From: Verrucomicrobiia bacterium
GTDB lineage: Bacteria > Verrucomicrobiota > Verrucomicrobiia > Limisphaerales > Palsa-1400
Length of the DNA stretch: 27,895 nucleotides
Direction: 5' to 3'
NCBI GenBank assembly: GCA_036501665.1
Contig: DASXZW010000024.1
Span: 1 to 27,895, forward strand
Below the pieces are notes generated by a model that saw only the letters and a list, made by a program, of their open reading frames with translations, did no database searches and had not been told where the DNA came from. Shown here one piece after another: positions 10,810-27,895 of this stretch. The position numbers were made by a program, and so were the translations under genes. Numbering within the stretch: position 1 is the first letter of the stretch; every line of letters starts with the position of its first letter.

Positions 10810-11274
10810 ATGAAACGCAATCGCAACCGCAAATACGCAGCTCTGACGCTCCTGGGAAACTCCCAGGCAGCGTTTCCCAAGTCCCCTCAGAAGGCAACGC
10901 TTGAAGTGTTTGCGAATACCCACCCACAGCGCGATTACTCAATCCGCATTGACTGCCCTGACTTCACGTCGCTCTGCCCCGTGACCTGCCAACCCGATTT
11001 CGCCGAGATCGTTGTTGATTATATTCCCGATGCCCGTTGCATCGAGACGAAATCACTCAAGCTTTATTTGGCTTCGTATCGCAACGTGCATTCGTTCAAC
11101 GAAGCGGTAATCAATCGCATTCTCGACGATTTGGTTCGATCCTGCCAACCGCGCCGAATGCGAATCGAGGGTCACTTCGCCGCCAGAGGCGGACTTGCCC
11201 TCACCGTGATCGCGGCATATCCGCAAAGCGAAATTGACGCCGGTCGTCCCGTCCGAAAAGGAGGTAAAATATGA
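10810..11274 (+). CDS. queF: NADPH-dependent 7-cyano-7-deazaguanine (preQ0) reductase QueF
   Basis: YAALTLLGN, CPDFTSLCPVTCQPDF (catalytic Cys and Asp), VDYIPDARCIETKSLKLYLASYRN, ARGGLALTV; start at ATG 10810. Confidence 0.88.
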   Translation: MKRNRNRKYAALTLLGNSQAAFPKSPQKATLEVFANTHPQRDYSIRIDCPDFTSLCPVTCQPDFAEIVVDYIPDARCIETKSLKLYLASYRNVHSFNEAVINRILDDLVRSCQPRRMRIEGHFAARGGLALTVIAAYPQSEIDAGRPVRKGGKI

Positions 11275-11975
11275 AAACAAAAGTTGTCGTACTCGTCAGC
11301 GGCGGAATGGATTCCGTTTCCGCCCTCTACGAAGCGCATCAGCAATACATTGTCACCGCCGCGCTCAGTTTTGACTACGGCTCAAAGCACAACCACAAAG
11401 AGATTCCATTTGCCGCGTGGCATTGTCAGAAACTCGGTATTCCTCACCACGCCATCTCTCTTGATTTTGTCGGCCAACTTTTCAAGTCTGACCTCTTGAA
11501 GTCCGGCGGCGCGATTCCAGACGGTCACTACGAAGAGCAAAGCATGAAGCAAACTGTCGTGCCCTTCCGTAACGGCATTATGCTCTCAATTGCCGGAGGC
11601 TTCGCTGAGTCCATAGAGGCGAACGGGTTGGTCATTGCTGCTCACTCAGGGGACCACGCCATTTATCCCGACTGCCGAGAGGATTTCATGAAGTCGATGG
11701 CAGATGCGCTTCGACTTGGCACGTACGCCGCCGTCGAAATCCTGCGCCCATTCATTCACCGGACAAAGGCTCAGATTGCCCAGCGCGGACACGACCTCGG
11801 TGTCGATTTCTCAAAAACCTGGTCATGCTATAAAGGGGGTGACATCCACTGCGGCACATGCGGCACATGCGTTGAACGCCGTGAAGCGTTCATGCTCACT
11901 GGACTTCCCGACCCGACAATTTACGCTGAAACCTCAACTCTGCCCCCGAAGCCGGCGGCAGCCATCCACACCTGA
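11271..11975 (+). CDS. queC: 7-cyano-7-deazaguanine synthase QueC
   Basis: VVVLVSGGMDSVSALYEA PP-loop; SMKQTVVPFRNGIMLSIA; YPDCREDFM; CYKGGDIHCGTCGTCVERREAF zinc motif. Confidence 0.93.
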   Translation: MKTKVVVLVSGGMDSVSALYEAHQQYIVTAALSFDYGSKHNHKEIPFAAWHCQKLGIPHHAISLDFVGQLFKSDLLKSGGAIPDGHYEEQSMKQTVVPFRNGIMLSIAGGFAESIEANGLVIAAHSGDHAIYPDCREDFMKSMADALRLGTYAAVEILRPFIHRTKAQIAQRGHDLGVDFSKTWSCYKGGDIHCGTCGTCVERREAFMLTGLPDPTIYAETSTLPPKPAAAIHT

Positions 11976-11976
11976 A

Positions 11977-12669
11977 ATGCTCATCTCGGAGATTTTTTAC
12001 TCCCTTCAGGGCGAAGGCGAACTCACTGGTATCCCCTCGGTATTCGTCCGCACTTCGGGCTGTAACCTCCGTTGCAATTGGTGCGACACAATGTACGCCT
12101 CCTGGGAACCCGAGGGGACTCAAATGTCGATGGATGAAATCCTCCTCAAGGTGGACTCATTCCCGGCTCAACATTGCGTACTCACCGGAGGCGAGCCAAT
12201 GGTTGCCAAAGAAATCCACGCTCTGGCAACAGCACTTAAAGAGCGAGGTAAGCACATTACCATCGAAACCGCGACGACCGTTCCGCCCAAAAGCATCGCC
12301 TGTGATCTCGCGTCGCTCAGTCCTAAACTCAGCAACTCCACGCCGGACCAACGGTTGCCCGACGCTTGGCGACGAAAACACGATAAATTGCGCTGGCAGC
12401 CCCTTGTCATTCAACAATGGATCGACCATTACCCTTATCAATTAAAATTTGTCATAACGTCGGCAGCCGACCTCAATGAAATTGATTTGCTTTTGAATGA
12501 GGTGAACCGAACAATTCCGCCTATGAAAATCTTGCTAATGCCCGAAGGGACATCAGCAGAGACCATTCGAGGGCGAAACGAAACCCTGGTTGACCTCTGC
12601 AAGCGATATGGCTATCGCTACTGCGACCGTCTCCACGTCCAGCTTTTTGGACACACGCGAGGAACATGA
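11977..12669 (+). CDS. queE: 7-carboxy-7-deazaguanine synthase QueE (radical SAM)
   Basis: MLISEIFYSLQGEGELTGIPSVFVRTSGCNLRCNWCDTMYA; VLTGGEPM; start 11977 just after the queC stop. Confidence 0.93.
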   Translation: MLISEIFYSLQGEGELTGIPSVFVRTSGCNLRCNWCDTMYASWEPEGTQMSMDEILLKVDSFPAQHCVLTGGEPMVAKEIHALATALKERGKHITIETATTVPPKSIACDLASLSPKLSNSTPDQRLPDAWRRKHDKLRWQPLVIQQWIDHYPYQLKFVITSAADLNEIDLLLNEVNRTIPPMKILLMPEGTSAETIRGRNETLVDLCKRYGYRYCDRLHVQLFGHTRGT

Positions 12670-13148
12670 TGCCATATCGTATTTGCAAAACTTTTGAGAT
12701 TGAAAATGGGCACATGCTCTCCAAACATCCTGACCTATGCAAATTTCCCCACGGTCACAGCCGCAAAGTCGAAATCGTTCTTGAGGCGGATTCATTGGAC
12801 GGCAATGAAATGGTCTGCGATTTCAAGGCCGTGACTGAGAGCCTAAACGAGCACCTTAAAACCCTCGACCACGCGATATGTGTCAATACCCAAGACCCGA
12901 ATTTCAAGCAGCTTAAGACCGCCTATGGCGACCGCGTCGTCGCCTTCGAAGCTCTCGACCCCACCACCGAGGTCATCGCCAAAGCGATTTTTGATTTTGC
13001 AAAGTCCAGACTGGTTGCGTACGGCTGCAAACCATCCGCCAAATACCCAATTCGCCCCAACATCCGATTGGTTAAAATCCGTCTCTGGGAAACCAGTAGT
13101 TCTTGGGCGGAGTACTTTGAGGCCAGCGGCACTCCACCACGCGAATGA
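12666..13148 (+). CDS. queD: 6-carboxy-5,6,7,8-tetrahydropterin synthase QueD (6-pyruvoyl-THP synthase family)
   Basis: CKTFEIENGHMLSKHPDLCKFPHGHSRKVEIVLEA; MVCDFKAV; LDHAICVN; PTTEVIAKAIFDF. Confidence 0.9.
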   Translation: MMPYRICKTFEIENGHMLSKHPDLCKFPHGHSRKVEIVLEADSLDGNEMVCDFKAVTESLNEHLKTLDHAICVNTQDPNFKQLKTAYGDRVVAFEALDPTTEVIAKAIFDFAKSRLVAYGCKPSAKYPIRPNIRLVKIRLWETSSSWAEYFEASGTPPRE

Positions 13149-13960
13149 AATACGCCCACACCAAGCCCCTCGCTGACATACAAAAAACCAGGGACCGGCG
13201 TGGTGTTAAAATCGACAAAGTTGGCGTCTGCGATCTGTCGTTTCCGATCACGGTTCTGGATCGCCAGAACCAGCGCCAGCAGACTGTTGCGACGGTTTCC
13301 ATGTCGGTGAGCCTGCCCCACCATTTCAAAGGCACCCACATGAGCCGATTCCTCGAAGTGCTCTGCCGACACCAGGGCGAAGTGACAATGCGAACGCTGC
13401 CTGCAATTCTTCACGACTTGAAGGATCGCCTCGAATCCGAAGCCGCCCACATCGAAGTTGATTTTGCCTATTTTCTCACCCGCAGAGCCCCGGTCAGTGG
13501 TTCGGAAGCACCAATGGATTACCGTTGCACGTTCATCGGCGAATCAAATGGCTTAAAAGACGATTTTCTTCTCCGCGTCCGTGTCCCTGTGACAACCCTA
13601 TGCCCATGTTCAAAAGAGATCAGCGATTACGGCGCGCATAACCAACGCGGTCTTGTCACTCTCACCGTCCGCCCTGAACGCAAGAATGGCCTCTGGGAAC
13701 TCATCTGGATCGAGGAACTCATCCTCATCGCCGAAAAATCCGCCTCGGCCCCTGTCTATCCTCTGCTCAAACGCCCGGACGAGCGCCACGTCACTATGCA
13801 GGCCTTCGACAATCCAGTCTTCGTCGAGGACGTTGTCCGCAACGCTGCCCGCATCCTGCAAAAGGACAGGCGCATAGCTTGGTTTGAGGTTCGAGCCGTC
13901 AATCAGGAGAGCATCCACAACCATTCCGCTTTTGCCGTGGTGGAGTCCAAAAGTGCGTGA
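13145..13960 (+). CDS. folE2: GTP cyclohydrolase IB FolE2
   Basis: 271 aa; VSMSVSLPHHFKGTHMSRF; CPCSKEISDYGAHNQRG; FVEDVVRNAARIL. Confidence 0.9.
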   Translation: MKYAHTKPLADIQKTRDRRGVKIDKVGVCDLSFPITVLDRQNQRQQTVATVSMSVSLPHHFKGTHMSRFLEVLCRHQGEVTMRTLPAILHDLKDRLESEAAHIEVDFAYFLTRRAPVSGSEAPMDYRCTFIGESNGLKDDFLLRVRVPVTTLCPCSKEISDYGAHNQRGLVTLTVRPERKNGLWELIWIEELILIAEKSASAPVYPLLKRPDERHVTMQAFDNPVFVEDVVRNAARILQKDRRIAWFEVRAVNQESIHNHSAFAVVESKSA

Positions 13961-14032
13961 ACGACCCCATGTCCCTCTGCCACCAGCCTGCCGCTCCCAG
14001 TCCTTGAGCTGCACCTTCCTAAATTCGACTCC

Positions 14033-14175
14033 GCTGATTTCTGCCGATTTCTGTTGAAATCTGGCTGGTAGGTCTGGAATCCTCTGCTCCAGAGTATGCT
14101 CCGAGCGGATTTGATACGCCAGAGCTTGCCAAACGTGGGAATCGGTTCCTCGGACGCGTTGGATCGGCCGAGGAA
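14033..14175. promoter_or_regulatory. Repeat-rich noncoding segment upstream of the ParB-like gene
   Basis: Near-tandem 10-mers GCTGATTTCT/GCCGATTTCT/GTTGAAATCT (14033-14062), GATTTC-TGTT-GAAATC (14046-14061), TTCCTCGG-14 nt-CCGAGGAA (14146-14175). Confidence 0.35.
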
Positions 14176-14216: not shown

Positions 14217-15713
14217 ATGAGACCCAGCGACAAAACATATTTCACGCACCTTCCCACGGGCAAAATTAGGGCGAACCCCTTCAACCCTCGAAAAACCTTC
14301 GACCAAGAGAGCCTAGATGAACTGGCTGCGAGCCTTGCAACTCACGGAGTTTTGCAGCCTCTCATCGTTTACGAAGACGAAACCTTTTTCGTCCTCATCT
14401 GCGGCGAACGCCGCCTGAGAGCCGCCCGTCAAGCCGGTCTGCCAGAAGTCCCAGCCATCGTTCATCCCATTCCCCCGGAAAACCCGCAGATGCTCTCGAT
14501 GATGCTCATCGAAAATCTGCAACGGAAGGAAGTCGATGTGGTGAATGAGTCTGCGGCGATTCGCCTATTGATAGAGGAGCACAACTGGTCCGTGGCCAGG
14601 GTGTCCAGAAGCTTGGGCGCCGGGGCAGCCTACGTCCGAAAACGGTATCTCCTTACTAAATTCAGTGACGTCCTCGTAGCCTTCACGAACAACACGATTT
14701 CATATTCTGAGGCCATCGAACTTGCATCGATTGAGGATGAGACCGTGCGAAAGTGGTTTTTCAGGCGTATCGAATCCGGAGAGCTTGCCGATTTGAAGAA
14801 ACTTGCCACAGCCGTGTCCCGCGATAAGCAGATCCACAACCTTTTGGGGAAAGGAACCTTCCTCAAACAGGCCCTTGATCGGTCCGCCGTCGAGTTTCAA
14901 GTTGATGGCCTTCCGTACTGCGATCCAAAATGTCCACACTACTTTCGAATTAGCTGGGACGAAAAGCAGCAGTACAAGATTCCGCACAGGAAGCCGGGTT
15001 GGGCAGAATTCTGTACAGACAAATGCGGGTCGTGCTACACGCAAAAGGTTAATGCAAAACAAACGAAACTGTCTGCATTGCGCTCCTTGAAGGCCCAAAG
15101 GCCAATCGCCGATGACGACTTTTCTTCGATGATGTGGCTTAATTACGAGGGGAAGTCCTGCCGAACCTGCCCGTGGATGGTGGAGACGACCGCCCTTGAG
15201 GAGGCTGGCCTAACCCCCCCCCCGAAAGCCCACGCCGTTTGCTCTTGCCCCTCCCCTGAATGCTACGATAAACGGACGCACGTTCTCAACAAGCGTGCGT
15301 CCAGACTTGATTTGCAAAAACAGCAATCCGACGATCTCAAACGTAAAATCCTCTTGAAAGAACTGAAAACGCCGTCCAACAAATTGAGTCAGAATCCCCG
15401 TCCCCAACTTACCAAACGGGAGTGTGCCTTCATCCTACTTCAGACCATTTCGCTCCTTGGAGGTCACGCACGTATACGTGACTTCGCGGAACGCCACGGC
15501 TGGGCAGATAAAATGCCCGCCCAGACCTACGCACAAGTGAAATTTGTACGGAATAAGATTCTCGATGAAATGTCCGAGGCAGACCTCTACGAAGCCCTGC
15601 TCAATGAAGCATGCCTCTCCGCAGCTTATACCACCGAGCCCTTTGTCCCGCTCCGGTTTAGGAGGGATGTTCAAAGCGAAGTCCCGGTGCAAACGAAGGA
15701 AGTTGATGAGTAG
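14217..15713 (+). CDS. ParB/Srx-like domain protein with Cys-rich C-terminal half; probable DpdB-like partner of DpdA
   Basis: 498 aa; IRANPFNPRKTFDQESLDELAASLATHGVLQPLIV, ICGERRLRAARQAGLPEVPAIV, LIENLQRKEVDVVNESAAI; Cys motifs CDPKC, CTDKCGSC, CRTC, CSCPSPEC. Confidence 0.8.
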   Translation: MRPSDKTYFTHLPTGKIRANPFNPRKTFDQESLDELAASLATHGVLQPLIVYEDETFFVLICGERRLRAARQAGLPEVPAIVHPIPPENPQMLSMMLIENLQRKEVDVVNESAAIRLLIEEHNWSVARVSRSLGAGAAYVRKRYLLTKFSDVLVAFTNNTISYSEAIELASIEDETVRKWFFRRIESGELADLKKLATAVSRDKQIHNLLGKGTFLKQALDRSAVEFQVDGLPYCDPKCPHYFRISWDEKQQYKIPHRKPGWAEFCTDKCGSCYTQKVNAKQTKLSALRSLKAQRPIADDDFSSMMWLNYEGKSCRTCPWMVETTALEEAGLTPPPKAHAVCSCPSPECYDKRTHVLNKRASRLDLQKQQSDDLKRKILLKELKTPSNKLSQNPRPQLTKRECAFILLQTISLLGGHARIRDFAERHGWADKMPAQTYAQVKFVRNKILDEMSEADLYEALLNEACLSAAYTTEPFVPLRFRRDVQSEVPVQTKEVDE

Positions 15714-17640
15714 GCTGGTCCACACTTACTTTTCGCTCCAGCGCCAAGCACAGTCAGGTGGTAGGCTTGGCACGATCCACTTCGGGAATGGAGGCAAGGT
15801 TCAGACCCCGGCTCTGTTCCCGGCCATTTGCATTATGACCGGCCCCCCCGGTTTTGGCCGTCAGGGCTCGCACTACAAGTACATCAAACGCATTATGTGC
15901 CGCGAGTGGCACCACAATCATTTCCTGACTGAGATCCTCCACTTTGCGGACTATATGGCGACAGCCAAATCATTGAATGCATGGCTGATCAAGCCATTCC
16001 ATCTCTGGATGGATGAAATGATGCGTGGCGGCAATGTGTCCAATCAGGACCAAGGCGATGATTTTGATTACGAACCGGGCCGGGCATACGAAGCCTGTTT
16101 TTTCCTCGACTCAGGCGGGTTTAAACTCCTTTCGAATAGTGATTTCAGCATTCAGAAATTCGGTTATGAAACCAGCCCAAAAAACATTCTCGACCTCCAG
16201 ACCCACATGGGCGGGGATATTATTGCGTCCCTCGACTACCCATTGGCCCCGTTGGATTATGATCATAAGACCCTGGCTCAATTGCAAAACAAGAGCCTCG
16301 ACAACGCCGTCTGGCTCCTTAAACAAATTGCCGACCGAGGTAGCAAAGGGCCGCGCCCTTTAGTTTACTTGGCGGTCCACGGCATAGATTGCGAATCTGC
16401 CCACGACTGCACTGAGCGCCTGCTGCAAAAACTCGACTCAGGAAATTTTCAATATGAGGCATTCGGATTCGCCATCGGCTCACTAGTGCCGCGCCGCAGC
16501 AATCGCGCTCTTGTTGCGAGTATTGTAAAAGGCGTCGTTGATGCAATCCACGATCATCACAACGGTCGTTATATCGAAAAGCCCGTCCATGCTTTCGGCA
16601 TGTCCGGAGACCTCATCCCGACCCTTACAATGCTCGGTGTGGACACCTTCGACACCAATGCCTTTGTCCAAGGTGGCAAAAATCTGCGGTATATCTTGCC
16701 CCCGCGAGGGGCAAACCTCTCCGTTCGTGAGACTAGGTCTATCGACGAACTTTCGTTGGATACCCTCCGCACATGCGGCTGTCGCGCCTGTACCAGATAC
16801 GAAAAACTTCTCAATCCATTTAAGCAACTAGCTCGCATGGAGAGAGACACTCGCCATAAAATTAAGGGGGTTGGCCGTCACCTGATCAAGTCCGAGATCT
16901 ACGCTTTCCTGGCGCTTCACAACCTCGAAACCGAATATCGGGAAATTGAGGCAGTAAAAGCCGAAATTCTGAACAACACTCTGCCAGCCTACGTCCGCTC
17001 TTACGCCGAGCGCGCCAATCACCGTGGAACTCTCATCCGGGCATACGAAGCCGCCACCGGTGAGTTCGTCCCCCGCACGACTGGCAGACGGGTTTCCCTG
17101 GAGCTTACGCGGGAATCTTTTGGCATCTCAGACACGTACCGCCCCCCAGAGGATAAAGAAATCCTGATTTTTCTGCCTTGCACAAAAGATAAACCTTATA
17201 GTAGCGCGCGCTCCCACCAGGCGATTCGCGGGGCGCTCAACAAAGACCCACGCATACACATTGTCACCATCTCTGGCCTCTATGGCCCTGTACCGGAAGA
17301 GTTGGAGCAGGAACCCGAAATCCTCCAATATGACTACGTTCTGTCACCCGAAGCGAAGGAGCAATCGAACGCCATCACGCGACGATTGAGCGAATATCTG
17401 AAGCGGTTCGGCACCCATTACAAGACCATCGTCGCTTACGTCACCACCCGCGCGTACCGTCACGTTGCAAAGCAAGCACTCCGGGCTTATGGACGTGGCG
17501 TGTTATTGCCCACGGCGCCAAAAGAACAAACATCCAAAGAATTTCTCCGATACGAGAATATTCGTGAGCTCCAGACAACTTTGGCACCACACATAGAAAC
17601 CTCAAAATCACTTGATGCATACCAAACCCTGAACACTTAA
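15706..17640 (+). CDS. dpdA: DpdA-like 7-deazaguanine transglycosylase (TGT-fold domain plus ArcS-like C-terminal domain)
   Basis: Starts MSRLVHTYFSL, overlapping the ParB-like gene by 8 nt; FFLDSGGFKLL, YLAVHG, FGFAIGSLVPRR, LTMLGVDTFDT nucleophile region, zinc site CGCRAC...ALHNLE; C-term ILIFLPCTKDKPYSSARSHQAI. Confidence 0.88.
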   Translation: MSRLVHTYFSLQRQAQSGGRLGTIHFGNGGKVQTPALFPAICIMTGPPGFGRQGSHYKYIKRIMCREWHHNHFLTEILHFADYMATAKSLNAWLIKPFHLWMDEMMRGGNVSNQDQGDDFDYEPGRAYEACFFLDSGGFKLLSNSDFSIQKFGYETSPKNILDLQTHMGGDIIASLDYPLAPLDYDHKTLAQLQNKSLDNAVWLLKQIADRGSKGPRPLVYLAVHGIDCESAHDCTERLLQKLDSGNFQYEAFGFAIGSLVPRRSNRALVASIVKGVVDAIHDHHNGRYIEKPVHAFGMSGDLIPTLTMLGVDTFDTNAFVQGGKNLRYILPPRGANLSVRETRSIDELSLDTLRTCGCRACTRYEKLLNPFKQLARMERDTRHKIKGVGRHLIKSEIYAFLALHNLETEYREIEAVKAEILNNTLPAYVRSYAERANHRGTLIRAYEAATGEFVPRTTGRRVSLELTRESFGISDTYRPPEDKEILIFLPCTKDKPYSSARSHQAIRGALNKDPRIHIVTISGLYGPVPEELEQEPEILQYDYVLSPEAKEQSNAITRRLSEYLKRFGTHYKTIVAYVTTRAYRHVAKQALRAYGRGVLLPTAPKEQTSKEFLRYENIRELQTTLAPHIETSKSLDAYQTLNT

Positions 17641-17678
17641 CGCCCAGCGTTTCTCAACGACGAAATAGAGGCTCCAGA

Positions 17679-17713
17679 AGCCCAGTTGCCCGAAAGGGAG
17701 CTGGGCTTTTTTT
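17679..17713 (+). terminator. Rho-independent-type hairpin with T7 tract
   Basis: AGCCCAG TTG CCC GAAA GGG AG CTGGGCT TTTTTT: strong stem with GAAA tetraloop, directly abutting ATG at 17714. Confidence 0.8.
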
Positions 17714-19327: not shown

Positions 19328-19480
19328 TTGCTTATTGCGGCAATCCGATTGCGGATATGAGCAACTGTAGAATCAAAACAGAATGCTCTCATTGCGTCAT
19401 ATAGCACTAACCAACAACATGTTGCACATAAAGCTGCAACGACGGCCTGAATTTGGCATACCACTCGCATCATCATCGCC

Positions 19481-21345: not shown

Positions 21346-22746
21346 ATGAGTAAATATATTATCAATCCAACGATTCAGGGGGATGTGACGTTAGGTGAAG
21401 GCGACCGCAAGAGCACGATGTTCGTAGGGCGCCTAGCTGAGACTGGGGCGGTGCGAAACGTCTATCAAGACGTGTCTAAAGAGTTCGTCAGTATTATTAT
21501 TGGTCAACGCGGCAGTGGCAAAAGTTTCAGCCTTGGGTCGCAACTTGAAAGCCTATGCACCACAAACCGAGAATCCTCCATAGGGAAGCGGCAGGAGGAT
21601 CGAGGCGTCCTCCTTATTGATCCAAACGCCAATTTCTGGACGAGTGCCATGCCGCTGCGAAATGGTGACCACGCCCGCCTGAAAAGGCAGCATTCCTCCA
21701 TCTCCGGGTGGAAAATCGGCATAGATGATGTAGCCGTCCAGGTATGGACTCCGGCGGGTTGCCGCTCCAGTACCGATCATCTGTCTGTTCAAGAATATTT
21801 CTTTGATACATCCGATTTTCGTTGTGAGGAATGGGCCGAAATCCTGTCGCTTGACACGACTCAGGACCCTCGCGGTATGTTGCTTTCTGATCTTTACTAC
21901 AAACTACGAGTTTCCGGATGGCATGATGGTACTCGTCGAGTTGATCCAGCGTCCAGAGTGGATCTCGCAACTCTTGTCAATTGTTTGGAAAATGATTCCG
22001 ACATCAATACAGGCTCAGCCGGGTATCAAAAGAGCACAATCGCAGCTCTGAAAAAGGAATTGGTCTCCTTATCGCGCCGCCCATTATTCGCAAATGCAGG
22101 CACACCGCTCACGACACTTATCAAGCCAGGAGTATTCAGCATTATGATGCTTCCATATGAACTGGGTCGTGGTTTACGGTCGGTTCTCGCGAGGGTTATC
22201 ATCAGTAAAATGATGAGCCATCGACGGGAAGCGACTAAGTTGCAACAGAGGCTTGACTTCGAAGAGATGCCGGACGCGCACCGGCAGGATTTGCGCTCCA
22301 AAGTCCTGAACCTCATACCCAGGACGGTTTTGGCCATCGACGAGGCCCAAGAGTTGCTTGGAGAAGCTGGGGGAGTCGAGCGCGCTGTACTTGAAGATTA
22401 TTGTCTTCGCGGGCGCGGCTTTGGTCTGTCGATGATCCTCGCCACTCAGCGACCGGAGTCCAGCGCCCTAAGCTCCAAGGTCACCAGCCAAGCTGACACT
22501 TGGTACATTCACAGCCTCGGTTCGCAAGGCAACATATCTACCGTTTATGATAACCTGGTCGCTGCATTTCCAGAGACAGTTTCGGACGGTCGCCAAACGC
22601 TTGATTTCTTCAGCCTTCTCAGGTCCTTGAACACAGGGCAATCGCTCGTGGCCGCAAAATCCATGGAAACCGGTAACGGAGTGCGGCGTGCATTTGTCAT
22701 GGATACTCGCCCGCGTGTCCGAATTCACGGTGGTGATGCCTCATGA
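21346..22746 (+). CDS. HerA/FtsK-like ATPase
   Basis: 466 aa; VSIIIGQRGSGKSFSLGSQLE; GVLLIDPNANFW; TVLAIDEAQELLGEAGG; MILATQRPESS; SD AAGGACGACTT upstream. Confidence 0.8.
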   Translation: MSKYIINPTIQGDVTLGEGDRKSTMFVGRLAETGAVRNVYQDVSKEFVSIIIGQRGSGKSFSLGSQLESLCTTNRESSIGKRQEDRGVLLIDPNANFWTSAMPLRNGDHARLKRQHSSISGWKIGIDDVAVQVWTPAGCRSSTDHLSVQEYFFDTSDFRCEEWAEILSLDTTQDPRGMLLSDLYYKLRVSGWHDGTRRVDPASRVDLATLVNCLENDSDINTGSAGYQKSTIAALKKELVSLSRRPLFANAGTPLTTLIKPGVFSIMMLPYELGRGLRSVLARVIISKMMSHRREATKLQQRLDFEEMPDAHRQDLRSKVLNLIPRTVLAIDEAQELLGEAGGVERAVLEDYCLRGRGFGLSMILATQRPESSALSSKVTSQADTWYIHSLGSQGNISTVYDNLVAAFPETVSDGRQTLDFFSLLRSLNTGQSLVAAKSMETGNGVRRAFVMDTRPRVRIHGGDAS

Positions 22747-24032
22747 CCATTCCACTTATTACATCATACACTGAGTTTCAGCAGCGCCTCGGCTACTGCA
22801 AGCTCCTCCTGGCCGTTTCCAAGCGAGCCGCCTCACAGCCCGAACAGGTGCTCAGACAACTCGATCACATATTTTTCAAGCCTACCGCCGACGGACACGA
22901 CACTTACCTCGGTCAAATCCTTGGGAAGCAGGTCCAAGTCAAAACAGCCCACTCCCACCTCCGTCTCCACAATTCCCTAGCCGAAACGGATAGCACGACG
23001 AGCCTTCGCAGCTTCGGGAACGAAGCAAAAGAGATACTAACGCTCTGCAGGGCGCTCGGATTGGTTGATGACCGCGTTGTTATCCTCGAAAACGCTATGC
23101 CTCTCATTCGTCTCATCCCCGAGGCTTCCTGGGATCTTGTTCGCCAAGGCTTACGGCCTGACGAGTACAACCCCTTGATCCTCGATCATGGCACCAGCAA
23201 TGTGAGCGAAAAAACCTACTTCCTTATTCGTCTATTAAGCGAGGACATTGCGTTTACATTGCTTCCTCTGGCTCTTCGCTCCAAAACTCGGACTGCTTTC
23301 CATCGCTACATTGATTGGGATGGGCTAAAAACCGACGATTTTCCCTCTAACAATATGTTAACGGTGGTCTATGAAGACCTAATATGCAGCGCCAAACCAA
23401 GACTCTTCGGTGAGGTCCGCAATGCCAAGAATTTAGACAACTATTTCCTTGGTGATCCTCGCAAACGGCGTACTCATCCCGGCATGCGGCAGTACGCGCG
23501 CTTCAGACATCAGGCTACACCGCGACTTGCGTTTCTGAAGGAACTGGGTATAATTGCGTCCCAACCTTTGCCGCCACCGGATTCTCATCTCTCGAAGCAA
23601 TACTCATATCTTCTTACGCCAACAACAGAAGCATACGTCGAATACATTCGGAAGACGTTACTGGCGGACGGGCTGGATAGCGAGGAGTTTGTGCGGAATC
23701 ACGCCTTTAAAATTGCAAGTATAATATACCATAGGGTCACTCGGCGACCCGTAGATCAGGAGGAAGTATTCCGTTACTTTTTGCGCGCGTATGTGCGACT
23801 AAAGCGCGACATGGGGAATACCCCCTCCGGTAGCATTTGTATGTTAGGATGCCTTCTCGCACAGGACGATGGCCTTTTAATAGAAATAAAGGAAATGCAC
23901 CAAGTCGGGCGGGACTACGCCCGTAAGTACTCTGAGTTTCTCCGCTATTCGGGTGGCAGCATTCAACTTGGAGATTATCTTATATCAGTTGATCATAGAT
24001 TGCTGCAAAACCTTGGTATCCAGAACCCATAA
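22743..24032 (+). CDS. Uncharacterised protein of the ATPase module
   Basis: 429 aa; ATGA overlap with the HerA-like gene; no recognised motif. Confidence 0.75.
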   Translation: MTIPLITSYTEFQQRLGYCKLLLAVSKRAASQPEQVLRQLDHIFFKPTADGHDTYLGQILGKQVQVKTAHSHLRLHNSLAETDSTTSLRSFGNEAKEILTLCRALGLVDDRVVILENAMPLIRLIPEASWDLVRQGLRPDEYNPLILDHGTSNVSEKTYFLIRLLSEDIAFTLLPLALRSKTRTAFHRYIDWDGLKTDDFPSNNMLTVVYEDLICSAKPRLFGEVRNAKNLDNYFLGDPRKRRTHPGMRQYARFRHQATPRLAFLKELGIIASQPLPPPDSHLSKQYSYLLTPTTEAYVEYIRKTLLADGLDSEEFVRNHAFKIASIIYHRVTRRPVDQEEVFRYFLRAYVRLKRDMGNTPSGSICMLGCLLAQDDGLLIEIKEMHQVGRDYARKYSEFLRYSGGSIQLGDYLISVDHRLLQNLGIQNP

Positions 24033-24045
24033 TCGAAGAACAATT

Positions 24046-24903
24046 ATGCCATCAAACAAGCCAAAGCCAAACGATATCGCCGAAAGCCCCCTCGGTCCGC
24101 TTGCCTTGAAAGTTTTTGACCGCTCAAAAGTTTGGTCGCTTTTAGCAAAGCAGGTGGAGGACTGCTTTGTTTTCGCCAACGCCACTCCGAACGCCCAACT
24201 CGATCCATTTAAGGTCGCACTACTCCTGCCGCAACTCCAATTACACTTCAGAACTACTAATGACCCTCCCGACGCAGATCTGTCCGCACTACAGGCATGG
24301 ACAAATCAAGAGTGCCGACGTGCAATTGCTGAGTTCGAGGTTGCTTTGCAAAAATTGTGCGCGGCAGAAAAACTCCAAGTAGAAGGCCGGTTCCCTCACT
24401 TCATTCTTGCAGGATTCCTCGAAATTATAGTTCAAGATAAACAACCCGTTTGTAAAATCGGTGGGTCCAGCTTAAATACAGTGAACCTTTCAATCGTTGC
24501 GCCTGTAATCCTTCAAAGGATCAGGGAGGACACCGCCCGCAAGTTCGACCCCAAGTTATTTCTTGATCAACTATACAAAGCTTATCAACGAACCGCTCTC
24601 AATGGGCGAATTCCGGGAGGCGAGCCCGTGCTTGCGAAGTTGATTCTTCCAGAGATCGCCTTTATTAAACAATCGCTCGCTTTCTTGAAGTCGCCGTCCA
24701 AGGCTGCCTTCGTCGATTACACCTTGGAACACTTCGCTCGTGATTTGGCCCTCATTCTGAAAGACGGCAACGTTTGCACCTCTAACGGCAAGCGTTTACA
24801 CCCAACACCAGTGTCCAATTCGTCTGACGGCATTCCAGTTATGATCGACGGCGCTTATCGATACATAGGACGTCTCACCTTCTTGGAGGAAACCCAGCGA
24901 TGA
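24046..24903 (+). CDS. Uncharacterised protein of the ATPase module
   Basis: 285 aa starting MPSNKPKPNDIAESPLGPLALKVFDRSKVW; ATGA overlap with next gene. Confidence 0.7.
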   Translation: MPSNKPKPNDIAESPLGPLALKVFDRSKVWSLLAKQVEDCFVFANATPNAQLDPFKVALLLPQLQLHFRTTNDPPDADLSALQAWTNQECRRAIAEFEVALQKLCAAEKLQVEGRFPHFILAGFLEIIVQDKQPVCKIGGSSLNTVNLSIVAPVILQRIREDTARKFDPKLFLDQLYKAYQRTALNGRIPGGEPVLAKLILPEIAFIKQSLAFLKSPSKAAFVDYTLEHFARDLALILKDGNVCTSNGKRLHPTPVSNSSDGIPVMIDGAYRYIGRLTFLEETQR

Positions 24904-26207
24904 GCACACTGGATCAACCGTTAGCCAAACGGCTCATTTCGCGCCTGAAGGCAGGTACGGCGCCCATTGACTGTGTGGACCAATTGAATGTTGGAAATGA
25001 AGCTTGGTACAGTGCTGCTGTTCAATACTTTGAGGACTTAGCTCAGGATGGCGACGCCCTCGTCCGCTTCGTGCGCGGCCACTATGGTGATGGCAAAACA
25101 CACTTTTTAGGGATGCTCGGTGCTCTCGCATTCAAAAACGGTTGGAGCGTCAGCTACGTTACCGCCGAGAGAACCAAACTTCACAAATTCGAGGTCGTCT
25201 ATTCCGAAATTATAAAGGCCATAAATCTTCCGCCAGGTGTTTCAATTGTCCCCTGGCTTACTGAAATCAGACCGAGGGGGGCGATGTCCCTGTTGGGAGC
25301 CTTTTTCTCCAAGATATACATCGACGTGCATGGTGCTGCCAATGAACATGGCATCAATCGAATGTCGGTACTTCACGAGGTTAAACAACGTGTGGCCAAG
25401 TTTAGTGCGGCGAACGGATTCCACGACTTAGTGAGCACAGCGCTCATGATTTTCACGAAAGCAGCACTGGCACAAGAGGCTCAAGGAATGTCTGACATGG
25501 TTTCATGGTTTCAGGGTGATGATGTTAAATTTAGAGATAAAGGAATAAATAGGCGGATCGACCAACGTCTTGCAAGAGATGTGCTTCGCTGTCTCACGCA
25601 AGTATCCCAGCACGTAGGGATTCGTGGCACCTTGGTCCTTCTTGACGAGGCGGAACTTATATTGGCACAAACGAAGTCTGTACGCACTAAATCCTATTCG
25701 GTGCTTCGTGACCTCCTCGATAATGCCGATCCGCAAGCAGGAATGCGCGCATCCATTATATATATTGCTGCGACACCAGAAATGTTCACGGCTAAAGAAG
25801 GCTTTGCTGAGTACGAAGCGCTGCGCTCGCGCCTAATGCCGGCATTATCCTTTACATCCAAGAGATTCATCGACTATCGCGACGTGGTAGTTGATCTCAC
25901 GCGAACCCCGCTTCCTGCGGACCTCCTGTTCCAGCTTGCAAAGAAAGTACGTGGAATCCATTCTGTTGCCAGACAGTGGGACGCTTCGGCTCACATTTCG
26001 GACGATCTGCTACAGATCATTGTCACGCGGATAGACAACGGGTCGTTTCCCGTCTCGAAGCCGCGCATGGTTACTTCCGTGATTACGCAGCTTCTGGAGT
26101 CCGCTGAGCAGAACAGGACCGAGGACCCCACTTTGGCAATTGAAGCGACGGTGTCGGATGCGGCACAAACACTCTCCATGCGGCCCGATTCCGAGAAATG
26201 GGATTGA
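24900..26207 (+). CDS. BrxC/BrxD (DUF2791)-like P-loop ATPase
   Basis: 435 aa; FVRGHYGDGKTHFLGMLGALAFKNGWSVSYVTAE; TLVLLDEAELI; VIYIAATPEMF-like sensor segment (IIYIAATPEMF). Confidence 0.7.
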   Translation: MSTLDQPLAKRLISRLKAGTAPIDCVDQLNVGNEAWYSAAVQYFEDLAQDGDALVRFVRGHYGDGKTHFLGMLGALAFKNGWSVSYVTAERTKLHKFEVVYSEIIKAINLPPGVSIVPWLTEIRPRGAMSLLGAFFSKIYIDVHGAANEHGINRMSVLHEVKQRVAKFSAANGFHDLVSTALMIFTKAALAQEAQGMSDMVSWFQGDDVKFRDKGINRRIDQRLARDVLRCLTQVSQHVGIRGTLVLLDEAELILAQTKSVRTKSYSVLRDLLDNADPQAGMRASIIYIAATPEMFTAKEGFAEYEALRSRLMPALSFTSKRFIDYRDVVVDLTRTPLPADLLFQLAKKVRGIHSVARQWDASAHISDDLLQIIVTRIDNGSFPVSKPRMVTSVITQLLESAEQNRTEDPTLAIEATVSDAAQTLSMRPDSEKWD

Positions 26208-27895
26208 ATCAGCGGGAATTTCAGATGAACCTAACGAAATCAAGTGCTCGCTGCGCAATTCGGCACTTGAAGCGTGGCGTGTTCCCGCCAGATGAGATTG
26301 AGCATTTCACGGCGGGCCGCGACTCCGAGTGCAAAGCTCTCAACATCGCCCTTAAAGAAGCAGAACAGGGGGGAAACCGCCATTTCTTTATCGAAGCGAG
26401 CTATGGCGTGGGCAAATCACACATGCTCAAGCTCGTTGAGTCACTTGCACTACGAAATGGCTTCGCGGTGTGCTGGGTAACTACTGACGGTTACGCGCAC
26501 GCTTTCAACCATCCTACCCGCTATTTGCACACCCTTCTCGAGAACATGAGAGTTCCAGGTTTGCACAGAAACGGGTTCGCTCAAGCGTGTTCGCATTGGC
26601 TCAAGAACCGCGAACGCGACAACCTACTTACTCGCGTTAAGAGTCAGCCTAACAATGCGCTTCACTGGCCTATTATCCGCATGAGTATGGAAAACGGTGA
26701 CGAGGGCGACTATAAGGATTACTATCTGGGTAACCTAGAGTGCCGCGATCTACAGCATAGAAACGGTCAAGCGTTTTTTGATTGTGTGTATGACCGCATC
26801 GCGTCAATGAACTCGGTGTGTCGTTCTGTAAGTTTAAAAGGAACTGTGTTTCTATTCGACGAAGTTGAATCCGTGGCTACTCTTTTGGTTAATATTCGTT
26901 CTCGTCTTCTTTCTTACGAGTTAATGAATGCATTCACCGATGCTCGCCGATTTCCAAATTCTGTATTTGTATTCGCCACCACCCTCGATTTCAGTGTTAA
27001 GATTCATTACGAGCTGAATGCTTACGAACTCCAAAACTATGCGTATCCAGAAGGCAATCGTTTCGCAAAAAAGTGGATTTCAAAAGGCATAAATCTTCTC
27101 AAGTTAGAAGGAATCAGCCAAGGAAATAATCGAGTACTGTTGCGTAATATTCGGACCGCCCACGAGACCGCCTACGAATGGGTGGCAACCGAAAAGATCA
27201 GCGACCATTTCATCGATCGGTTCCTCAAAAAGGCCAATGATCTTCCTCAGCGTGAGATTACGAGGAGCTTCGTCACTATTCTGGAAATCTCACATCAACA
27301 TCCCACCTGCTGCCCGGCAACCGAATTCCTTGGCGAGGCGTCGCCCACGCCGCAAATTGTGGAGGGCAATGACTCTAGGGTGGTTCGGGAGACCTTTGGT
27401 TCACAGGACGTACCACCATCGCCATGCACTCCGCAAGCGGAGTCGACTTCGGCATCACGTTCTTCTAAAGCAGAGCCGCCAAAAAACCAGTCAACTCCTG
27501 ATTCGTCAACTGTTACGCATGAAACGCCGTTGCCAGATCAAAACCTTAGTTCCTTTCCGCAGCTTGGTTCTTCCACGGCACCATTGACTACTCCAAACAC
27601 TGGCCTATTGCCGTGCGTTCATTGCTTTGCATCAGTAAGGTCTGACCGTATGGGAAGGCATATTGCTCGGTTTCACGCAGGTTTGCAGCCGCCAACCAAT
27701 GTTGCGCCAATGGAAGCCACCGTGGACCAGCCGGGCAAATCAACATCAAATAGCGCGGAAGGCACTTTCACCAGCACCTCAATCTGTTTGGTGCCGTGTA
27801 ATTATTGCTTTTGCATGGTCAGATCTGACAGATTGCAACGACACATACAACGTGTGCATTCAGGGCAACATCGTCCTCCAAGTCCCAATGACTAG
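26198..27895 (+). CDS. BrxC/BrxD (DUF2791)-like P-loop ATPase with Ser/Thr/Pro-rich linker and two C-terminal C2H2-like zinc fingers
   Basis: 565 aa; FFIEASYGVGKSHMLKLVESLALRNGFAVCWVTTD; TVFLFDEVESVA; CVHCFASVRSDRMGRHIARFH and CNYCFCMVRSDRLQRHIQRVH; alternative start ATG 26225. Confidence 0.75.
   Translation: MGLNQREFQMNLTKSSARCAIRHLKRGVFPPDEIEHFTAGRDSECKALNIALKEAEQGGNRHFFIEASYGVGKSHMLKLVESLALRNGFAVCWVTTDGYAHAFNHPTRYLHTLLENMRVPGLHRNGFAQACSHWLKNRERDNLLTRVKSQPNNALHWPIIRMSMENGDEGDYKDYYLGNLECRDLQHRNGQAFFDCVYDRIASMNSVCRSVSLKGTVFLFDEVESVATLLVNIRSRLLSYELMNAFTDARRFPNSVFVFATTLDFSVKIHYELNAYELQNYAYPEGNRFAKKWISKGINLLKLEGISQGNNRVLLRNIRTAHETAYEWVATEKISDHFIDRFLKKANDLPQREITRSFVTILEISHQHPTCCPATEFLGEASPTPQIVEGNDSRVVRETFGSQDVPPSPCTPQAESTSASRSSKAEPPKNQSTPDSSTVTHETPLPDQNLSSFPQLGSSTAPLTTPNTGLLPCVHCFASVRSDRMGRHIARFHAGLQPPTNVAPMEATVDQPGKSTSNSAEGTFTSTSICLVPCNYCFCMVRSDRLQRHIQRVHSGQHRPPSPND

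What the first reader, a model, noticed from the sequence alone, without database searches (positions are those of the whole stretch)
10810..27895. Candidate variant 7-deazaguanine DNA modification/restriction (Dpd-type) island with a QueF gene and an ATPase-rich module
Seen: queF-queC-queE-queD-folE2, then a ParB-like gene overlapping a DpdA-like gene, then a PLD-like protein and five P-loop ATPases, all on one strand. Known: Dpd islands pair preQ0 synthesis genes with DpdA/DpdB/DpdC modification genes and a restriction module including a PLD protein (DpdK). Inference: this is a related DNA modification/defence system, but the visible accessory set has no SNF2- or RecQ-type helicase and instead has three YGxGK(T/S)H ATPases, a HerA-like ATPase and a bEBP-like ATPase. 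I cannot exclude helicases beyond the window edge.
Basis: partly seen in the sequence, partly recalled or inferred. Interest (0 to 1): 0.92.

Follow-up and report, generated by a model that had tools for sequence, protein, structure and literature searches.

The report
Variant deazaguanine DNA modification-restriction island
This stretch of a transferable bacterial element probably writes an unusual guanine analogue into DNA with enzymes borrowed from archaeal tRNA modification, and pairs that writer with an undescribed, separately regulated set of ATPases and a nuclease that likely attacks unmarked DNA.

Summary
Bases 10810-27895 hold 16 same-strand genes: queF-queC-queE-queD-folE2, a ParB gene overlapping a TGT-family gene by 8 nt, a PLD protein and five P-loop/AAA+ ATPases.

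The system-level interpretation (a Dpd-type variant) holds, but several labels need correcting.
- The "DpdA-like" enzyme is a TGT fused to the ArcS catalytic core (DUF5591). It is closest to archaeal arcTGT/ArcS and matches no DpdA model.
- The ParB is a classical GxxRxxA type, not DpdB.
- A small zinc-ribbon protein also belongs to this writer module.
- Relatives of the same writer (48-61% identity) sit next to canonical DpdE/F/G/H. This ties the writer to DNA and to Dpd.
- In the window's clade, DpdE-H is replaced by a cassette: PLD, three BrxD-type ATPases, a HerA/FtsK-like ATPase and two unknown proteins.
- The cassette stays linked to the writer through rearrangements. Elsewhere it pairs with canonical DpdABC or with methyltransferases.
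- The cassette ends at the last gene in relatives, with no helicase beyond.
- The "bEBP-like ATPase" is a genuine sigma-54 activator. A conserved -24/-12 promoter lies before the PLD gene.

No DNA chemistry or defence phenotype was tested. Verdict: new variant of a known kind; interest 0.78.

The parts
10810..11274 (+). QueF, NADPH-dependent preQ0 reductase (unimodular type)
   Evidence: Pfam QueF 2e-30. CPVTCQPDF catalytic Cys and ETKSLKLY NADPH motif read from the sequence, motif as defined in PMC10516641. Start codon.
11271..11975 (+). QueC, preQ0 synthase
   Evidence: Pfam QueC 4.6e-61
11977..12669 (+). QueE, radical-SAM CDG synthase
   Evidence: Radical_SAM 2e-13 and Fer4_12; start
12666..13148 (+). 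QueD (PTPS family)
   Evidence: PF01242 5.9e-27
13145..13960 (+). FolE2, GTP cyclohydrolase IB
   Evidence: PF02649 8.3e-92
14217..15713 (+). ParB-type NTPase with GERRLRA (GxxRxxA) motif, HTH_ParB and a Cys-rich C-terminal half; proposed DpdB analogue
   Evidence: ParB_N 8.7e-25, NCBIfam Noc-like 6.6e-36 and parB_part 2.4e-27. No PADLOC DpdB hit. No BLASTP similarity to DpdB. Motif. Found upstream of the TGT fusion in all 10 writer loci.
15706..17640 (+). TGT-DUF5591 fusion: TGT-family transglycosylase domain plus ArcS C1 catalytic core; proposed DNA deazaguanine inserter and nitrile modifier
   Evidence: Pfam TGT 4e-17 and DUF5591 1e-19; NCBIfam ArcS 6e-25 and arcTGT 8e-18, both below cut-off. 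PDB phmmer: arcTGT 1iq8 and AF0587. AF2 pLDDT 87.5. Foldseek: arcTGT 1e-20; phage nt-1 DpdA2 2e-7; nt-1 ArcS2 1e-4. Invariant D135, D313/D316, C357/C359/C362/H405, and the PCxxxKPY motif.
17667..17713 (+). Conserved AGAGGCTCnnGAAGCCC box plus GC-rich hairpin and U-tract, abutting the next start codon; terminator or attenuator between the writer genes and what follows
   Evidence: Present after the TGT stop in the window, L002, L003, L004, L006, L174 and L175, with different stem interiors. No Rfam match.
17714..18112 (+). 132-aa protein with a C-terminal four-Cys zinc ribbon; third conserved component of the writer module
   Evidence: No Pfam, PADLOC or NCBIfam hit. A homologue follows the TGT fusion in loci with either restriction type (L002-4, L006, L008/9, L174, L175).
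18125..19327 (+). Sigma-54 enhancer-binding-type AAA+ activator without an N-terminal sensor domain (PspF/RtcR-like)
   Evidence: Sigma54_activat 1.7e-28; RtcR/NtrC-type hits. GAFTDA loop here, exact GAFTGA in six homologues, and a Fis-type HTH in the L004 homologue.
19454..19469 (+). Sigma-54-type -24/-12 promoter TGGCAT-N5-CTCGCA, 12 nt before the PLD start codon
   Evidence: A TGGCAY box sits at the same place in L002, L004, L006 and L011, and upstream of the activator gene in L012, L093, L095 and L098. Background frequency is 5.4e-4 per nt.
19481..20011 (+). Single-HKD PLD-family nuclease candidate (HSK...GSAN)
   Evidence: PLDc_2 2.8e-6, RE_NgoFVII 1e-4, PADLOC ZacB 5.6e-11, DrmC 1e-5. 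Motif.
20200..21336 (+). 378-aa P-loop ATPase (GQYGCGKT), a divergent BrxD paralogue; always precedes the HerA-like gene
   Evidence: hhalign against the BrxD alignment: 97% probability, E 3.6e-11. The pairing with HerA is seen in nearly all metagenomic loci with sequence upstream of the HerA gene.
21346..22746 (+). HerA/FtsK-superfamily ATPase (DUF87-like)
   Evidence: PADLOC mad8 3e-11 and HerA 2e-8. The family profile hits HerA and FtsK chains in PDB. 214 representative clusters at E<=1e-30.
22743..24032 (+). 429-aa fast-evolving unknown protein, mostly helical with possible winged-helix elements
   Evidence: No Pfam, PADLOC, NCBIfam or PDB hit. AF2 model is poor, pLDDT 47. Conserved position after HerA.
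24046..24903 (+). 285-aa unknown protein of the extended cassette
   Evidence: No family or PDB hit. Syntenic homologues in L002, L004, L006, L176, L012, L096 and L114.
24900..26207 (+). BrxD-type ORC/Cdc6-like ATPase
   Evidence: PF10923 6e-46; PADLOC BrxD 8e-39; NCBIfam BREX_BrxD 6e-38, below its cut-off of 350 bits
26198..27895 (+). Second BrxD-like ATPase with a window-specific C-terminal extension of about 190 aa carrying two C2H2-like zinc fingers
   Evidence: PF10923 1.4e-23; SngB 2e-16 and BrxD 3e-15. Relatives are 371-382 aa and are the last gene of the island. CxxC...H motifs.

Best explanation
This is a two-module, restriction-modification-like island carried on a conjugative element.

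Module 1, the writer (10810-18112):
- FolE2, QueD, QueE and QueC make preQ0 from GTP, and QueF can reduce it to preQ1. This pathway is established.
- The TGT domain of the fusion protein exchanges guanine in DNA for the deazaguanine base.
- It is helped by a classical ParB-type NTPase, which takes the place of the DpdB ATPase.
- The fused ArcS-C1 (DUF5591) domain then modifies the 7-substituent. It takes the place of DpdC and most likely turns the nitrile into an amidine-type product such as dG+.
- A small zinc-ribbon protein is a third, uncharacterised subunit.

- An orphan sigma-54 activator switches on a -24/-12 promoter in front of the PLD nuclease gene.
- The effector complex is built from three BrxD-type ORC/Cdc6-like ATPases, a HerA/FtsK-like translocase and two fast-evolving proteins, which are presumed DNA or invader sensors.
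- The complex is proposed to load on DNA lacking the mark and feed it to the nuclease.

Shown here: gene content, catalytic motifs, the fold of the fusion, conserved linkage, module swapping and the promoter motif. Inferred: DNA as the substrate, the chemical product, and that the cassette reads the modification.
For: Writer.
- The full preQ0/preQ1 pathway is present.
- The TGT catalytic Asp pair, the Zn site and the ArcS PCxxxKPY core are invariant in the family.
- The AF2 model is confident and matches arcTGT, phage DpdA2 and phage ArcS2.
- The phage nt-1 DpdA2 + ArcS2 pair makes dG+ in DNA (PMC10516641).
- ParB, the TGT fusion and the zinc-ribbon gene are syntenic in all writer loci where that flank is readable, except L176, and ParB/TGT overlap by 8 nt.
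- The only TGT-family gene in L008-10 and L174 is this fusion. It sits directly upstream of DpdE (3.7e-135), DpdF (1.3e-156), DpdG and DpdH (1.3e-64).

Coupling of the two modules.
- The cassette follows the writer in the window, L001/2, L004/5 and L006/7. It precedes the writer in L176.
- A decayed cassette sits next to an intact writer in L003.

The cassette as a portable partner of modification enzymes.
- It lies next to canonical DpdA (8.6e-171), DpdB and DpdC plus QueC/QueE/FolE, with no DpdE-H, in L146.
- It lies next to a DpdA-DUF6884 fusion in L132 and L103.
- It lies next to HsdM/HsdS or C5 methyltransferases in L011-13, L094, L096, L123, L143, L144 and L153.

Regulation.
- The activator family carries the GAFTGA loop, and TGGCAY -24 boxes recur at the same position.
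Against: - No chemistry or phenotype was tested.
- The transglycosylase is closer to tRNA enzymes (arcTGT/ArcS) than to DpdA.
- Its distant relatives (30-35% identity; Poribacteria, cyanobacteria, haloarchaea) have no ParB or defence neighbours, and some may be true tRNA ArcS.
- QueF fits poorly with an ArcS-type step, which needs the nitrile of preQ0. The motif Ser is Ala in the QueF-bearing clade.
- The writer occurs without the cassette (the P0005 locus and L003), and the cassette occurs without any writer I could recognise in many loci. Adjacency could therefore reflect defence-island clustering.
- The predicted sigma-54 transcription start falls almost on the PLD start codon.
- Three of nine loci have a non-GC -12 element.
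Confidence: 0.6

Rival explanations
1. Two independent systems lie side by side on a mobile element. The writer is a stealth (anti-restriction) device that protects the conjugative element's own DNA in new hosts, as phage DpdA systems do. The ATPase/PLD cassette is a self-contained defence system that does not read the modification.
For: The island sits beside a TrwC relaxase, a ParA and a type IV coupling protein. The writer occurs alone or with other neighbours (L003 and the P0005 locus). The cassette occurs in many loci with no recognisable modification gene nearby. Phage deazaguanine systems are protective only.
Against: The linkage of cassette and writer survives rearrangement and 59-76% divergence. 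The same writer alternates with canonical Dpd restriction genes. The cassette recurs next to four different kinds of DNA-modifying enzyme. No relative of the fusion was found in phage or viral collections.
Confidence: 0.25
2. This is a tRNA modification operon. The ArcS-like fusion makes an archaeosine- or queuosine-type base in tRNA, and the ParB gene is incidental.
For: The best sequence and structure matches are arcTGT and ArcS. Public annotations call the family tRNA-guanine transglycosylase. Haloarchaeal relatives sit near QueC and QueE.
Against: The gene overlaps a DNA-binding ParB gene in every member of this subclade. No PUA or C2 RNA-binding domain is detected. The cluster sits on a mobile element. 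In two lineages it is embedded directly in front of DpdE-H. NCBIfam ArcS and TgtA scores are far below cut-off (87.8 against 440; 64 against 350).
Confidence: 0.05
3. The cassette acts as an abortive-infection or plasmid-exclusion machine triggered by the sigma-54 activator on sensing invasion. The deazaguanine mark serves another purpose, for example epigenetic control or marking of the element for partition by ParB.
For: Sigma-54 control implies inducible rather than constitutive expression. HerA/FtsK systems with ORC-like ATPases have been proposed to capture invader DNA independently of modification (PMC12839542). The ParB is of the partition/Noc type.
Against: The cassette repeatedly pairs with modification enzymes of unrelated chemistry. 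ParB is translationally coupled to the transglycosylase, not to the ParA gene upstream.
Confidence: 0.1

Closest known systems
Dpd system of Salmonella Montevideo (dpdA-K; PMC10164549)
   Same: preQ0 synthesis genes are clustered with a TGT-superfamily enzyme and a ParB-superfamily NTPase, followed by a multi-gene restriction module that includes a PLD protein. Relatives of the window's writer are followed by true DpdE/F/G/H.
   Different: The transglycosylase belongs to the arcTGT/ArcS lineage, not DpdA. The ParB carries GxxRxxA, not the DndB-type DGQQR. There is no DpdC (DUF328); a fused DUF5591 domain stands in its place. There is no DpdD-K. QueF is present. Restriction genes are BrxD-type and HerA-type ATPases under sigma-54 control.
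Vibrio phage nt-1 DpdA2 + ArcS2 (dG+ in DNA; PMC10516641)
   Same: A TGT-family DNA transglycosylase works with a stand-alone DUF5591 core. The model matches both nt-1 proteins structurally. preQ0 genes are encoded alongside.
   Different: Here the two are fused. They are bacterial and element-borne, not phage-borne. They are coupled to ParB and to a restriction-like cassette. The phage systems are protective only.
Archaeal ArcS / arcTGT (tRNA archaeosine pathway)
   Same: These are the best sequence and fold matches. The TGT barrel, Zn site and C1 motif PC-X3-KPY are shared.
   Different: No C2 or PUA tRNA-binding domains are detected. Scores are far below family cut-offs. The motif Ser is replaced by Ala. 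The genomic context is DNA-related.
BREX-Related Capture (BRC) system (PMC12839542)
   Same: It is a composite of a HerA/FtsK translocase, BREX-derived ORC/Cdc6-type ATPases and a TGT homologue proposed to mark self DNA.
   Different: BRC is defined by PglZ, DUF6079 (BrxC-like), DUF4007 and a STAND NTPase, with optional GNAT, and lacks a ParB. None of those is found here. The window has BrxD-type ATPases, a PLD, ParB, preQ0 genes and a sigma-54 activator.
BREX type 2 BrxD, Shango SngB and MADS mad8
   Same: BrxD/SngB-type ATPase domains give E-values of 8e-39 and 1e-25. The HerA-like protein hits mad8 at 3e-11.
   Different: No PglX, PglZ, BrxC, BrxHI, SngA/C or mad1-7 homologues are present. 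These are shared domains, not shared systems.

Membership tests
Dpd system (dpdA-K) | DpdA-family DNA transglycosylase | tested here: not met
   No PADLOC DpdA hit at E<=0.01, while a control DpdA from L146 scores 8.6e-171. hhalign of the family against DpdA gives E 0.013 and 3% probability. Membership of the TGT superfamily is met.
Dpd system (dpdA-K) | DpdB (DndB-type ParB ATPase, DGQQR motif) | tested here: not met
   No PADLOC DpdB hit. No BLASTP similarity to a DpdB that scores 5.7e-140. The motif is GERRLRA.
Dpd system (dpdA-K) | DpdC (DUF328) converting dPreQ0 to dADG | tested here: not met
   No DUF328 or DpdC hit in any ORF. A fused DUF5591 domain is present instead. Its model gives a weak Foldseek match to a YaaA-named viral protein (4.7e-3).
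Dpd system (dpdA-K) | Restriction genes DpdD-K (SNF2, DEAD and other helicases, DpdG/H, PLD DpdK) | tested here: not met
   No DpdD-K hits. The PLD protein hits ZacB and DrmC, not DpdK. Relatives of the writer do carry DpdE-H.
Dpd system (dpdA-K) | preQ0 synthesis genes in or near the cluster | tested here: met
   FolE2, QueD, QueE and QueC, plus QueF
Dpd system (dpdA-K) | 7-deazaguanine nucleosides in genomic DNA and restriction of unmodified DNA | not testable with these tools
   Needs LC-MS/MS and transformation or phage assays
ArcS (archaeosine synthase) | C1 domain motif PC-X3-KPY-X2-S-X2-H | tested here: inconclusive
   The window has PCTKDKPYSSARSH. PC, KPY and H are kept and Ser is replaced by Ala. 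Ser is kept in other subclade members.
ArcS (archaeosine synthase) | C2 and PUA tRNA-binding domains; NCBIfam equivalog score | tested here: not met
   No PUA hit. The protein ends after C1. ArcS scores 87.8 bits against a cut-off of 440.
BREX | PglZ, PglX methyltransferase and BrxC | tested here: not met
   Only BrxD-type ATPases were found by Pfam, PADLOC and NCBIfam
BRC system (PMC12839542) | HerA/FtsK with PglZ, DUF6079, DUF4007 and a STAND NTPase | tested here: not met
   A HerA-like protein is present. No hits to the other four in any ORF.
Sigma-54 enhancer-binding proteins | AAA+ Sigma54_activat domain with GAFTGA loop, and a cognate -24/-12 promoter | tested here: met
   PF00158 1.7e-28. 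GAFTDA here and exact GAFTGA in six homologues. TGGCAT-N5-CTCGCA lies at 19454, with boxes at the same position in eight other loci. A C-terminal HTH was seen only in the L004 homologue.

The most novel reading that the evidence does not exclude
A bacterial mobile element uses a CTP-type ParB clamp to deliver an ArcS-derived transglycosylase along its own DNA. This installs a base not yet reported in bacterial DNA: an amidine-type deazaguanine such as dG+ or a preQ0-amino-acid adduct, or a preQ1 derivative. The HerA/BrxD/PLD cassette would be a general, sigma-54-gated restriction engine that evolution re-keys to whatever mark its neighbour writes (deazaguanine, N6-methyladenine or 5-methylcytosine).
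Probability: 0.25. Interest if true: 0.9.

Novelty: new variant of a known kind. Interest (0 to 1): 0.78.

Why it matters
Three consequences would follow if this reading is right.

1. Bacteria would have recruited the archaeal tRNA archaeosine enzyme lineage, independently of DpdA/B/C, to write deazaguanines into DNA. That widens the enzymology of DNA hypermodification and predicts a new modified base in bacterial DNA.
2. It would define an unnamed restriction-type cassette (PLD, BrxD-type ATPases, HerA/FtsK-like ATPase, two unknown proteins). The HerA-like family has about 214 cluster representatives at E<=1e-30. The cassette swaps partners among deazaguanine writers and methyltransferases, which gives a natural experiment on how defence systems read different marks.
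3. It is a clear case of a defence effector operon placed under a dedicated sigma-54 activator.

All three points are directly testable with one roughly 17-kb clone.

Tried and rejected
- **Unknown proteins.** AF2 of the 429-aa unknown protein, using the only six homologues found, gave pLDDT 47 and was not searched further. Profile searches of both unknown proteins against PDB and Pfam found nothing significant. The best was a wHTH-like transcription protein at E 0.34.
- **RNA elements.** Rfam found no preQ1 riboswitch or any other family, and there are no tRNA genes.
- **parS-like sites.** Inverted-repeat scans near the ParB gene found nothing convincing.
- **Sigma-54 scan.** The window-wide scan allowing three mismatches was at chance level (121 against 129 expected). 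Only positional conservation across loci made the promoter credible.
- **MADS membership.** Rejected. Only a mad8-like P-loop hit is present and no mad1-7.
- **BRC and BREX membership.** Rejected.
- **QueF and the ArcS motif.** QueF presence correlates with Ser-to-Ala in the ArcS motif (5 of 5 against 1 of 5). The QueF-bearing loci are one clade and L176 is an exception, so I treat this as a clade trait only.
- **Phage origin.** No relatives in INPHARED phages or IMG/VR contigs.
- **Wasted search.** One literature search with substring matching returned only noise.

Full report
**1. Observation**

The region 10810-27895 is one uninterrupted run of + strand genes.

Pfam identifies the first seven:
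- QueF (2e-30)
- QueC (5e-61)
- QueE (radical SAM, 2e-13)
- QueD/PTPS (6e-27)
- FolE2 (8e-92)
- a ParB_N + HTH_ParB protein (9e-25)
- a protein with both TGT (4e-17) and DUF5591 (1e-19) domains

True start codons are 10810 (QueF), 11977 (QueE) and 15706 (TGT). The TGT start overlaps the ParB stop by 8 nt.

QueF carries the catalytic CPVTCQPDF and the NADPH motif ETKSLKLY. It is therefore a genuine reductase, not the archaeal amidinotransferase QueF-L (motif definition from PMC10516641).

Downstream genes:
- a 132-aa protein with no hits
- a Sigma54_activat AAA+ protein
- a single-HKD PLD protein
- a 378-aa P-loop protein
- a HerA/DUF87-like ATPase
- two proteins with no hits
- a BrxD-type ATPase (PF10923 6e-46)
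- a second BrxD-like ATPase

Upstream of the region lie a TrwC relaxase, a ParA and a type IV coupling protein. The island is therefore cargo of a conjugative element. The closest genome is an uncultured Verrucomicrobiae MAG.

**2. The transglycosylase is not a DpdA**

PADLOC DpdA and DpdB models do not hit the TGT protein or the ParB. They score 8.6e-171 and 5.7e-140 on control proteins from another locus.

The best family matches are ArcS (6e-25) and arcTGT (8e-18), both far below the curated cut-offs. PDB sequence hits are arcTGT 1iq8 and the ArcS-C1-like AF0587.

An AF2 model built on 39 homologues is confident (pLDDT 87.5). Its best structural matches are:
- arcTGT, 1e-20
- among viral proteins, phage DpdA-type enzymes, including Vibrio phage nt-1 DpdA2 (2e-7)
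- the nt-1 DUF5591 protein ArcS2 (1e-4)
- weaker, DUF6884 proteins and a protein named YaaA; YaaA/DUF328 is, from my own knowledge, the family of DpdC

Profile comparison with a canonical DpdA is marginal (E 0.013).

Catalytic features are invariant across the family:
- DSGG (D135)
- GVDTFD (D313/D316)
- the CxCxxC...H zinc site
- the ArcS core PCxxxKPY

In the window, the Ser of the published ArcS motif is Ala.

The ParB has the classical GERRLRA motif of CTP-binding ParB/Noc proteins. DpdB has DGQQR instead (PMC10164549). BLASTP shows no similarity between the window's ParB and DpdB.

**3. Why DNA is nevertheless the likely substrate**

Homologues of the fusion fall into two groups.

- Distant members (30-35% identity) come from Poribacteria, cyanobacteria, Chloroflexota and haloarchaea. 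They have no ParB neighbour. Some haloarchaeal ones sit near QueC/QueE and may be ordinary ArcS.
- Members at 48% identity or more all have the same neighbourhood: preQ0 genes, ParB, then the fusion. All but L176 also have a homologue of the 132-aa zinc-ribbon protein where that flank is readable.

In two lineages of this second group (L008-10 at 48%, L174 at 61%), the next genes are canonical DpdE (3.7e-135), DpdF (1.3e-156), DpdG and DpdH (1.3e-64). No other TGT-family gene is present there.

The fusion with ParB is therefore the only candidate writer for a bona fide Dpd restriction module. The published phage precedent is that DpdA2 plus ArcS2 gives dG+ in DNA. The fused C1 domain thus plausibly occupies DpdC's place.

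**4. The ATPase module is a distinct, portable cassette**

Four relatives keep the cassette with the writer:
- L001/2 (76% identity), L006/7 (67%) and L004/5 (59%) have the same order after the writer as the window: zinc-ribbon gene, sigma-54 AAA+, PLD, roughly 380-aa P-loop, HerA-like, roughly 430 aa, roughly 285 aa, BrxD, BrxD-like.
- In L001, L002 and L004 the island ends there. In L001 the next gene is a TraG-like gene on the opposite strand.
- In L176 (72%) the cassette lies upstream of the writer instead.

L003 (69%) has an intact writer next to truncated remnants of the PLD, P-loop and HerA genes. This is the pattern expected when restriction is lost and modification persists.

The 378-aa protein is a divergent BrxD paralogue (hhalign 97%, 3.6e-11).

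I searched with the HerA-like protein.
- The family has 214 representative clusters at E<=1e-30.
- Its recurrent core is [PLD] - P-loop - HerA - unknown.
- An extended form adds a roughly 280-aa protein and the BrxD pair, often headed by the sigma-54 activator.

The cassette also occurs without the window's writer but beside other DNA-modifying genes:
- canonical DpdA/DpdB(x3)/DpdC with QueC, QueE and FolE, and no DpdE-H within 10 kb (L146)
- a DpdA-DUF6884 fusion (L132, L103)
- HsdM/HsdS (L012/13/94, L123)
- C5 methyltransferases (L011, L096, L143, L144, L153)

The swapping runs both ways. One writer pairs with two restriction types, and one cassette pairs with several writers. This is the main argument that the two halves of the window work together as a modification-restriction pair.

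**5. Regulation**

The bEBP-like ATPase belongs to a family with the ELFGHxKGAFTGA sigma-54 contact loop. The motif is exact in six homologues and reads GAFTDA in the window. One homologue has a canonical Fis-type HTH.

A TGGCAY -24 box lies 15-45 nt before the gene that follows the activator in the window, L002, L004, L006 and L011. In the window it is 19454 TGGCATACCACTCGCA, with the PLD ATG at 19481. These five intergenic regions total about 900 nt. At the background rate of 5.4e-4 per nt, about 0.5 hits are expected and 5 were seen.

Where the activator abuts the next gene (L012, L093, L095, L098), the box lies upstream of the activator gene itself. Six of the nine boxes have GC at the -12 position.

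This protein is best read as the transcriptional switch of the effector operon. It is not a fifth mechanistic ATPase.

A conserved AGAGGCTCnnGAAGCCC box plus hairpin and U-tract separates the TGT gene from the zinc-ribbon gene in seven loci. It has no Rfam match.

**6. Comparison with known systems**

The island works like Dpd but fails every component-level membership test for Dpd except the presence of preQ0 genes.

It is not BREX. It is not the recently described BRC system, which combines HerA, BREX-like proteins and a TGT but is defined by PglZ, DUF6079, DUF4007 and a STAND NTPase. It is not MADS.

Only the BRC paper in the searchable library mentions HerA together with DpdA. No paper describes a ParB + TGT-DUF5591 writer.

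PADLOC 2.0 and NCBIfam release 20 have no models for the 378-aa, 429-aa, 285-aa or 132-aa proteins.

**7. Uncertainties**

- The product of the writer is unknown. QueF argues for preQ1. The C1 domain argues for chemistry on the nitrile of preQ0. From memory, ArcS transfers lysine to preQ0 and needs a radical-SAM partner to finish G+. Only QueE is present here.
- The substrate-pocket residues GSLVP are invariant regardless of QueF, so they do not discriminate.
- Whether the cassette reads the mark is inferred from synteny only.
- The two unknown proteins resisted analysis.

**8. Verdict**

- Novelty: a new variant of a known kind.
- Interest: 0.78.

Noticed in passing
window 17667-17713; also L002, L003, L004, L006, L174, L175 just after the TGT stop codon: A conserved AGAGGCTCnnGAAGCCC box is followed by a GC-rich hairpin and a U-tract that abuts the start codon of the 132-aa gene. 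Stem interiors differ between loci while pairing is kept. The 3' arm of a small upstream hairpin (GGCU...AGCC) overlaps the terminator stem, so this could be an attenuator or a protein-binding site. No Rfam match.
   Followed up: partly
window 19454-19469: A sigma-54-type promoter lies 12 nt before the PLD start codon. The predicted transcription start would make the mRNA nearly leaderless.
   Followed up: yes
window 1-10566: Conjugative-element genes flank the island: an HNH_2 protein (543-1334), a TrwC relaxase-helicase (2989-5808, - strand), a ParA (6458-7267), a TrwB/TraG coupling protein (7617-9107) and a HATPase_c_4 'RecG-C-like' regulator (9343-10566). The last is not conserved next to the island in relatives.
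   Followed up: partly
L146 7377-21201: Canonical DpdA, three DpdB paralogues (one inside the cassette operon), DpdC, QueC, QueE and FolE lie beside AlbA_2-PLD, P-loop, HerA and a 429-aa protein. No DpdE-H homologue lies within the locus. This is a 'HerA-type Dpd' with the standard writer.
   Followed up: partly
L132 11273-17469; L103; L173 (Haladaptatus plasmid NZ_CP119784) 11992-25919: Further TGT combinations were seen. One is a DpdA-DUF6884 fusion with a second short TGT, an N6/N4 methyltransferase and a BrxD-like ATPase, next to P-loop/HerA. On a haloarchaeal megaplasmid, two TGT-DUF5591 paralogues, a third TGT, a DUF6884 protein and a 1493-aa AAA protein lie together.
   Followed up: no
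TGT-DUF5591 model residues ~480-644 (window 17143-17640): Foldseek links the query model, over short alignments of about 150-210 columns, to the phage nt-1 DUF5591 protein ArcS2 (1.1e-4), to DUF6884 proteins (5e-3) and to a YaaA-named viral protein (4.7e-3). I assume these short matches fall on the C1 domain, because the nt-1 protein is a stand-alone DUF5591; the aligned coordinates were not checked. If YaaA/DUF328 is the DpdC family (my own knowledge), this hints that three 'nitrile-handling' domains fused or adjacent to DNA transglycosylases share a fold.
   Followed up: no
L003 13057-15981; L001/L002 12119-13254: Signs of cassette decay were seen. In L003, truncated PLD, P-loop and HerA remnants sit next to an intact writer. 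In the Verrucomicrobiae MAG locus, the 378-aa P-loop gene is split into 143-aa and 235-aa ORFs.
   Followed up: partly
window 27330-27895: The last BrxD-like protein has a Ser/Pro/Thr-rich C-terminal extension of about 190 aa with two C2H2-like fingers (CVHC...H...H and CNYC...H...H). Relatives, at 371-382 aa, lack it.
   Followed up: no
L174 8098-8475; P0005 locus: Some writer loci carry extra genes. L174 has a nucleoside 2-deoxyribosyltransferase between FolE2 and ParB. In the P0005 locus the writer is followed by NUDIX and RelA_SpoT genes and seven unknown genes instead of either restriction module.
   Followed up: no
L015-L092 (Poribacteria, cyanobacteria, Chloroflexota chromosomes): Dozens of bacterial genomes encode a TGT-DUF5591 protein at 30-35% identity with intact catalytic motifs but no ParB, preQ0 or defence neighbours. 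Its substrate in bacteria is unknown.
   Followed up: no
TGT-DUF5591 residues 492-505, alignment A1: The Ser of the ArcS motif is Ala in all five QueF-bearing loci and Ser in four of five QueF-less loci. In the DpdE-H-linked P0026 clade, the motif's Pro and His are also changed.
   Followed up: partly
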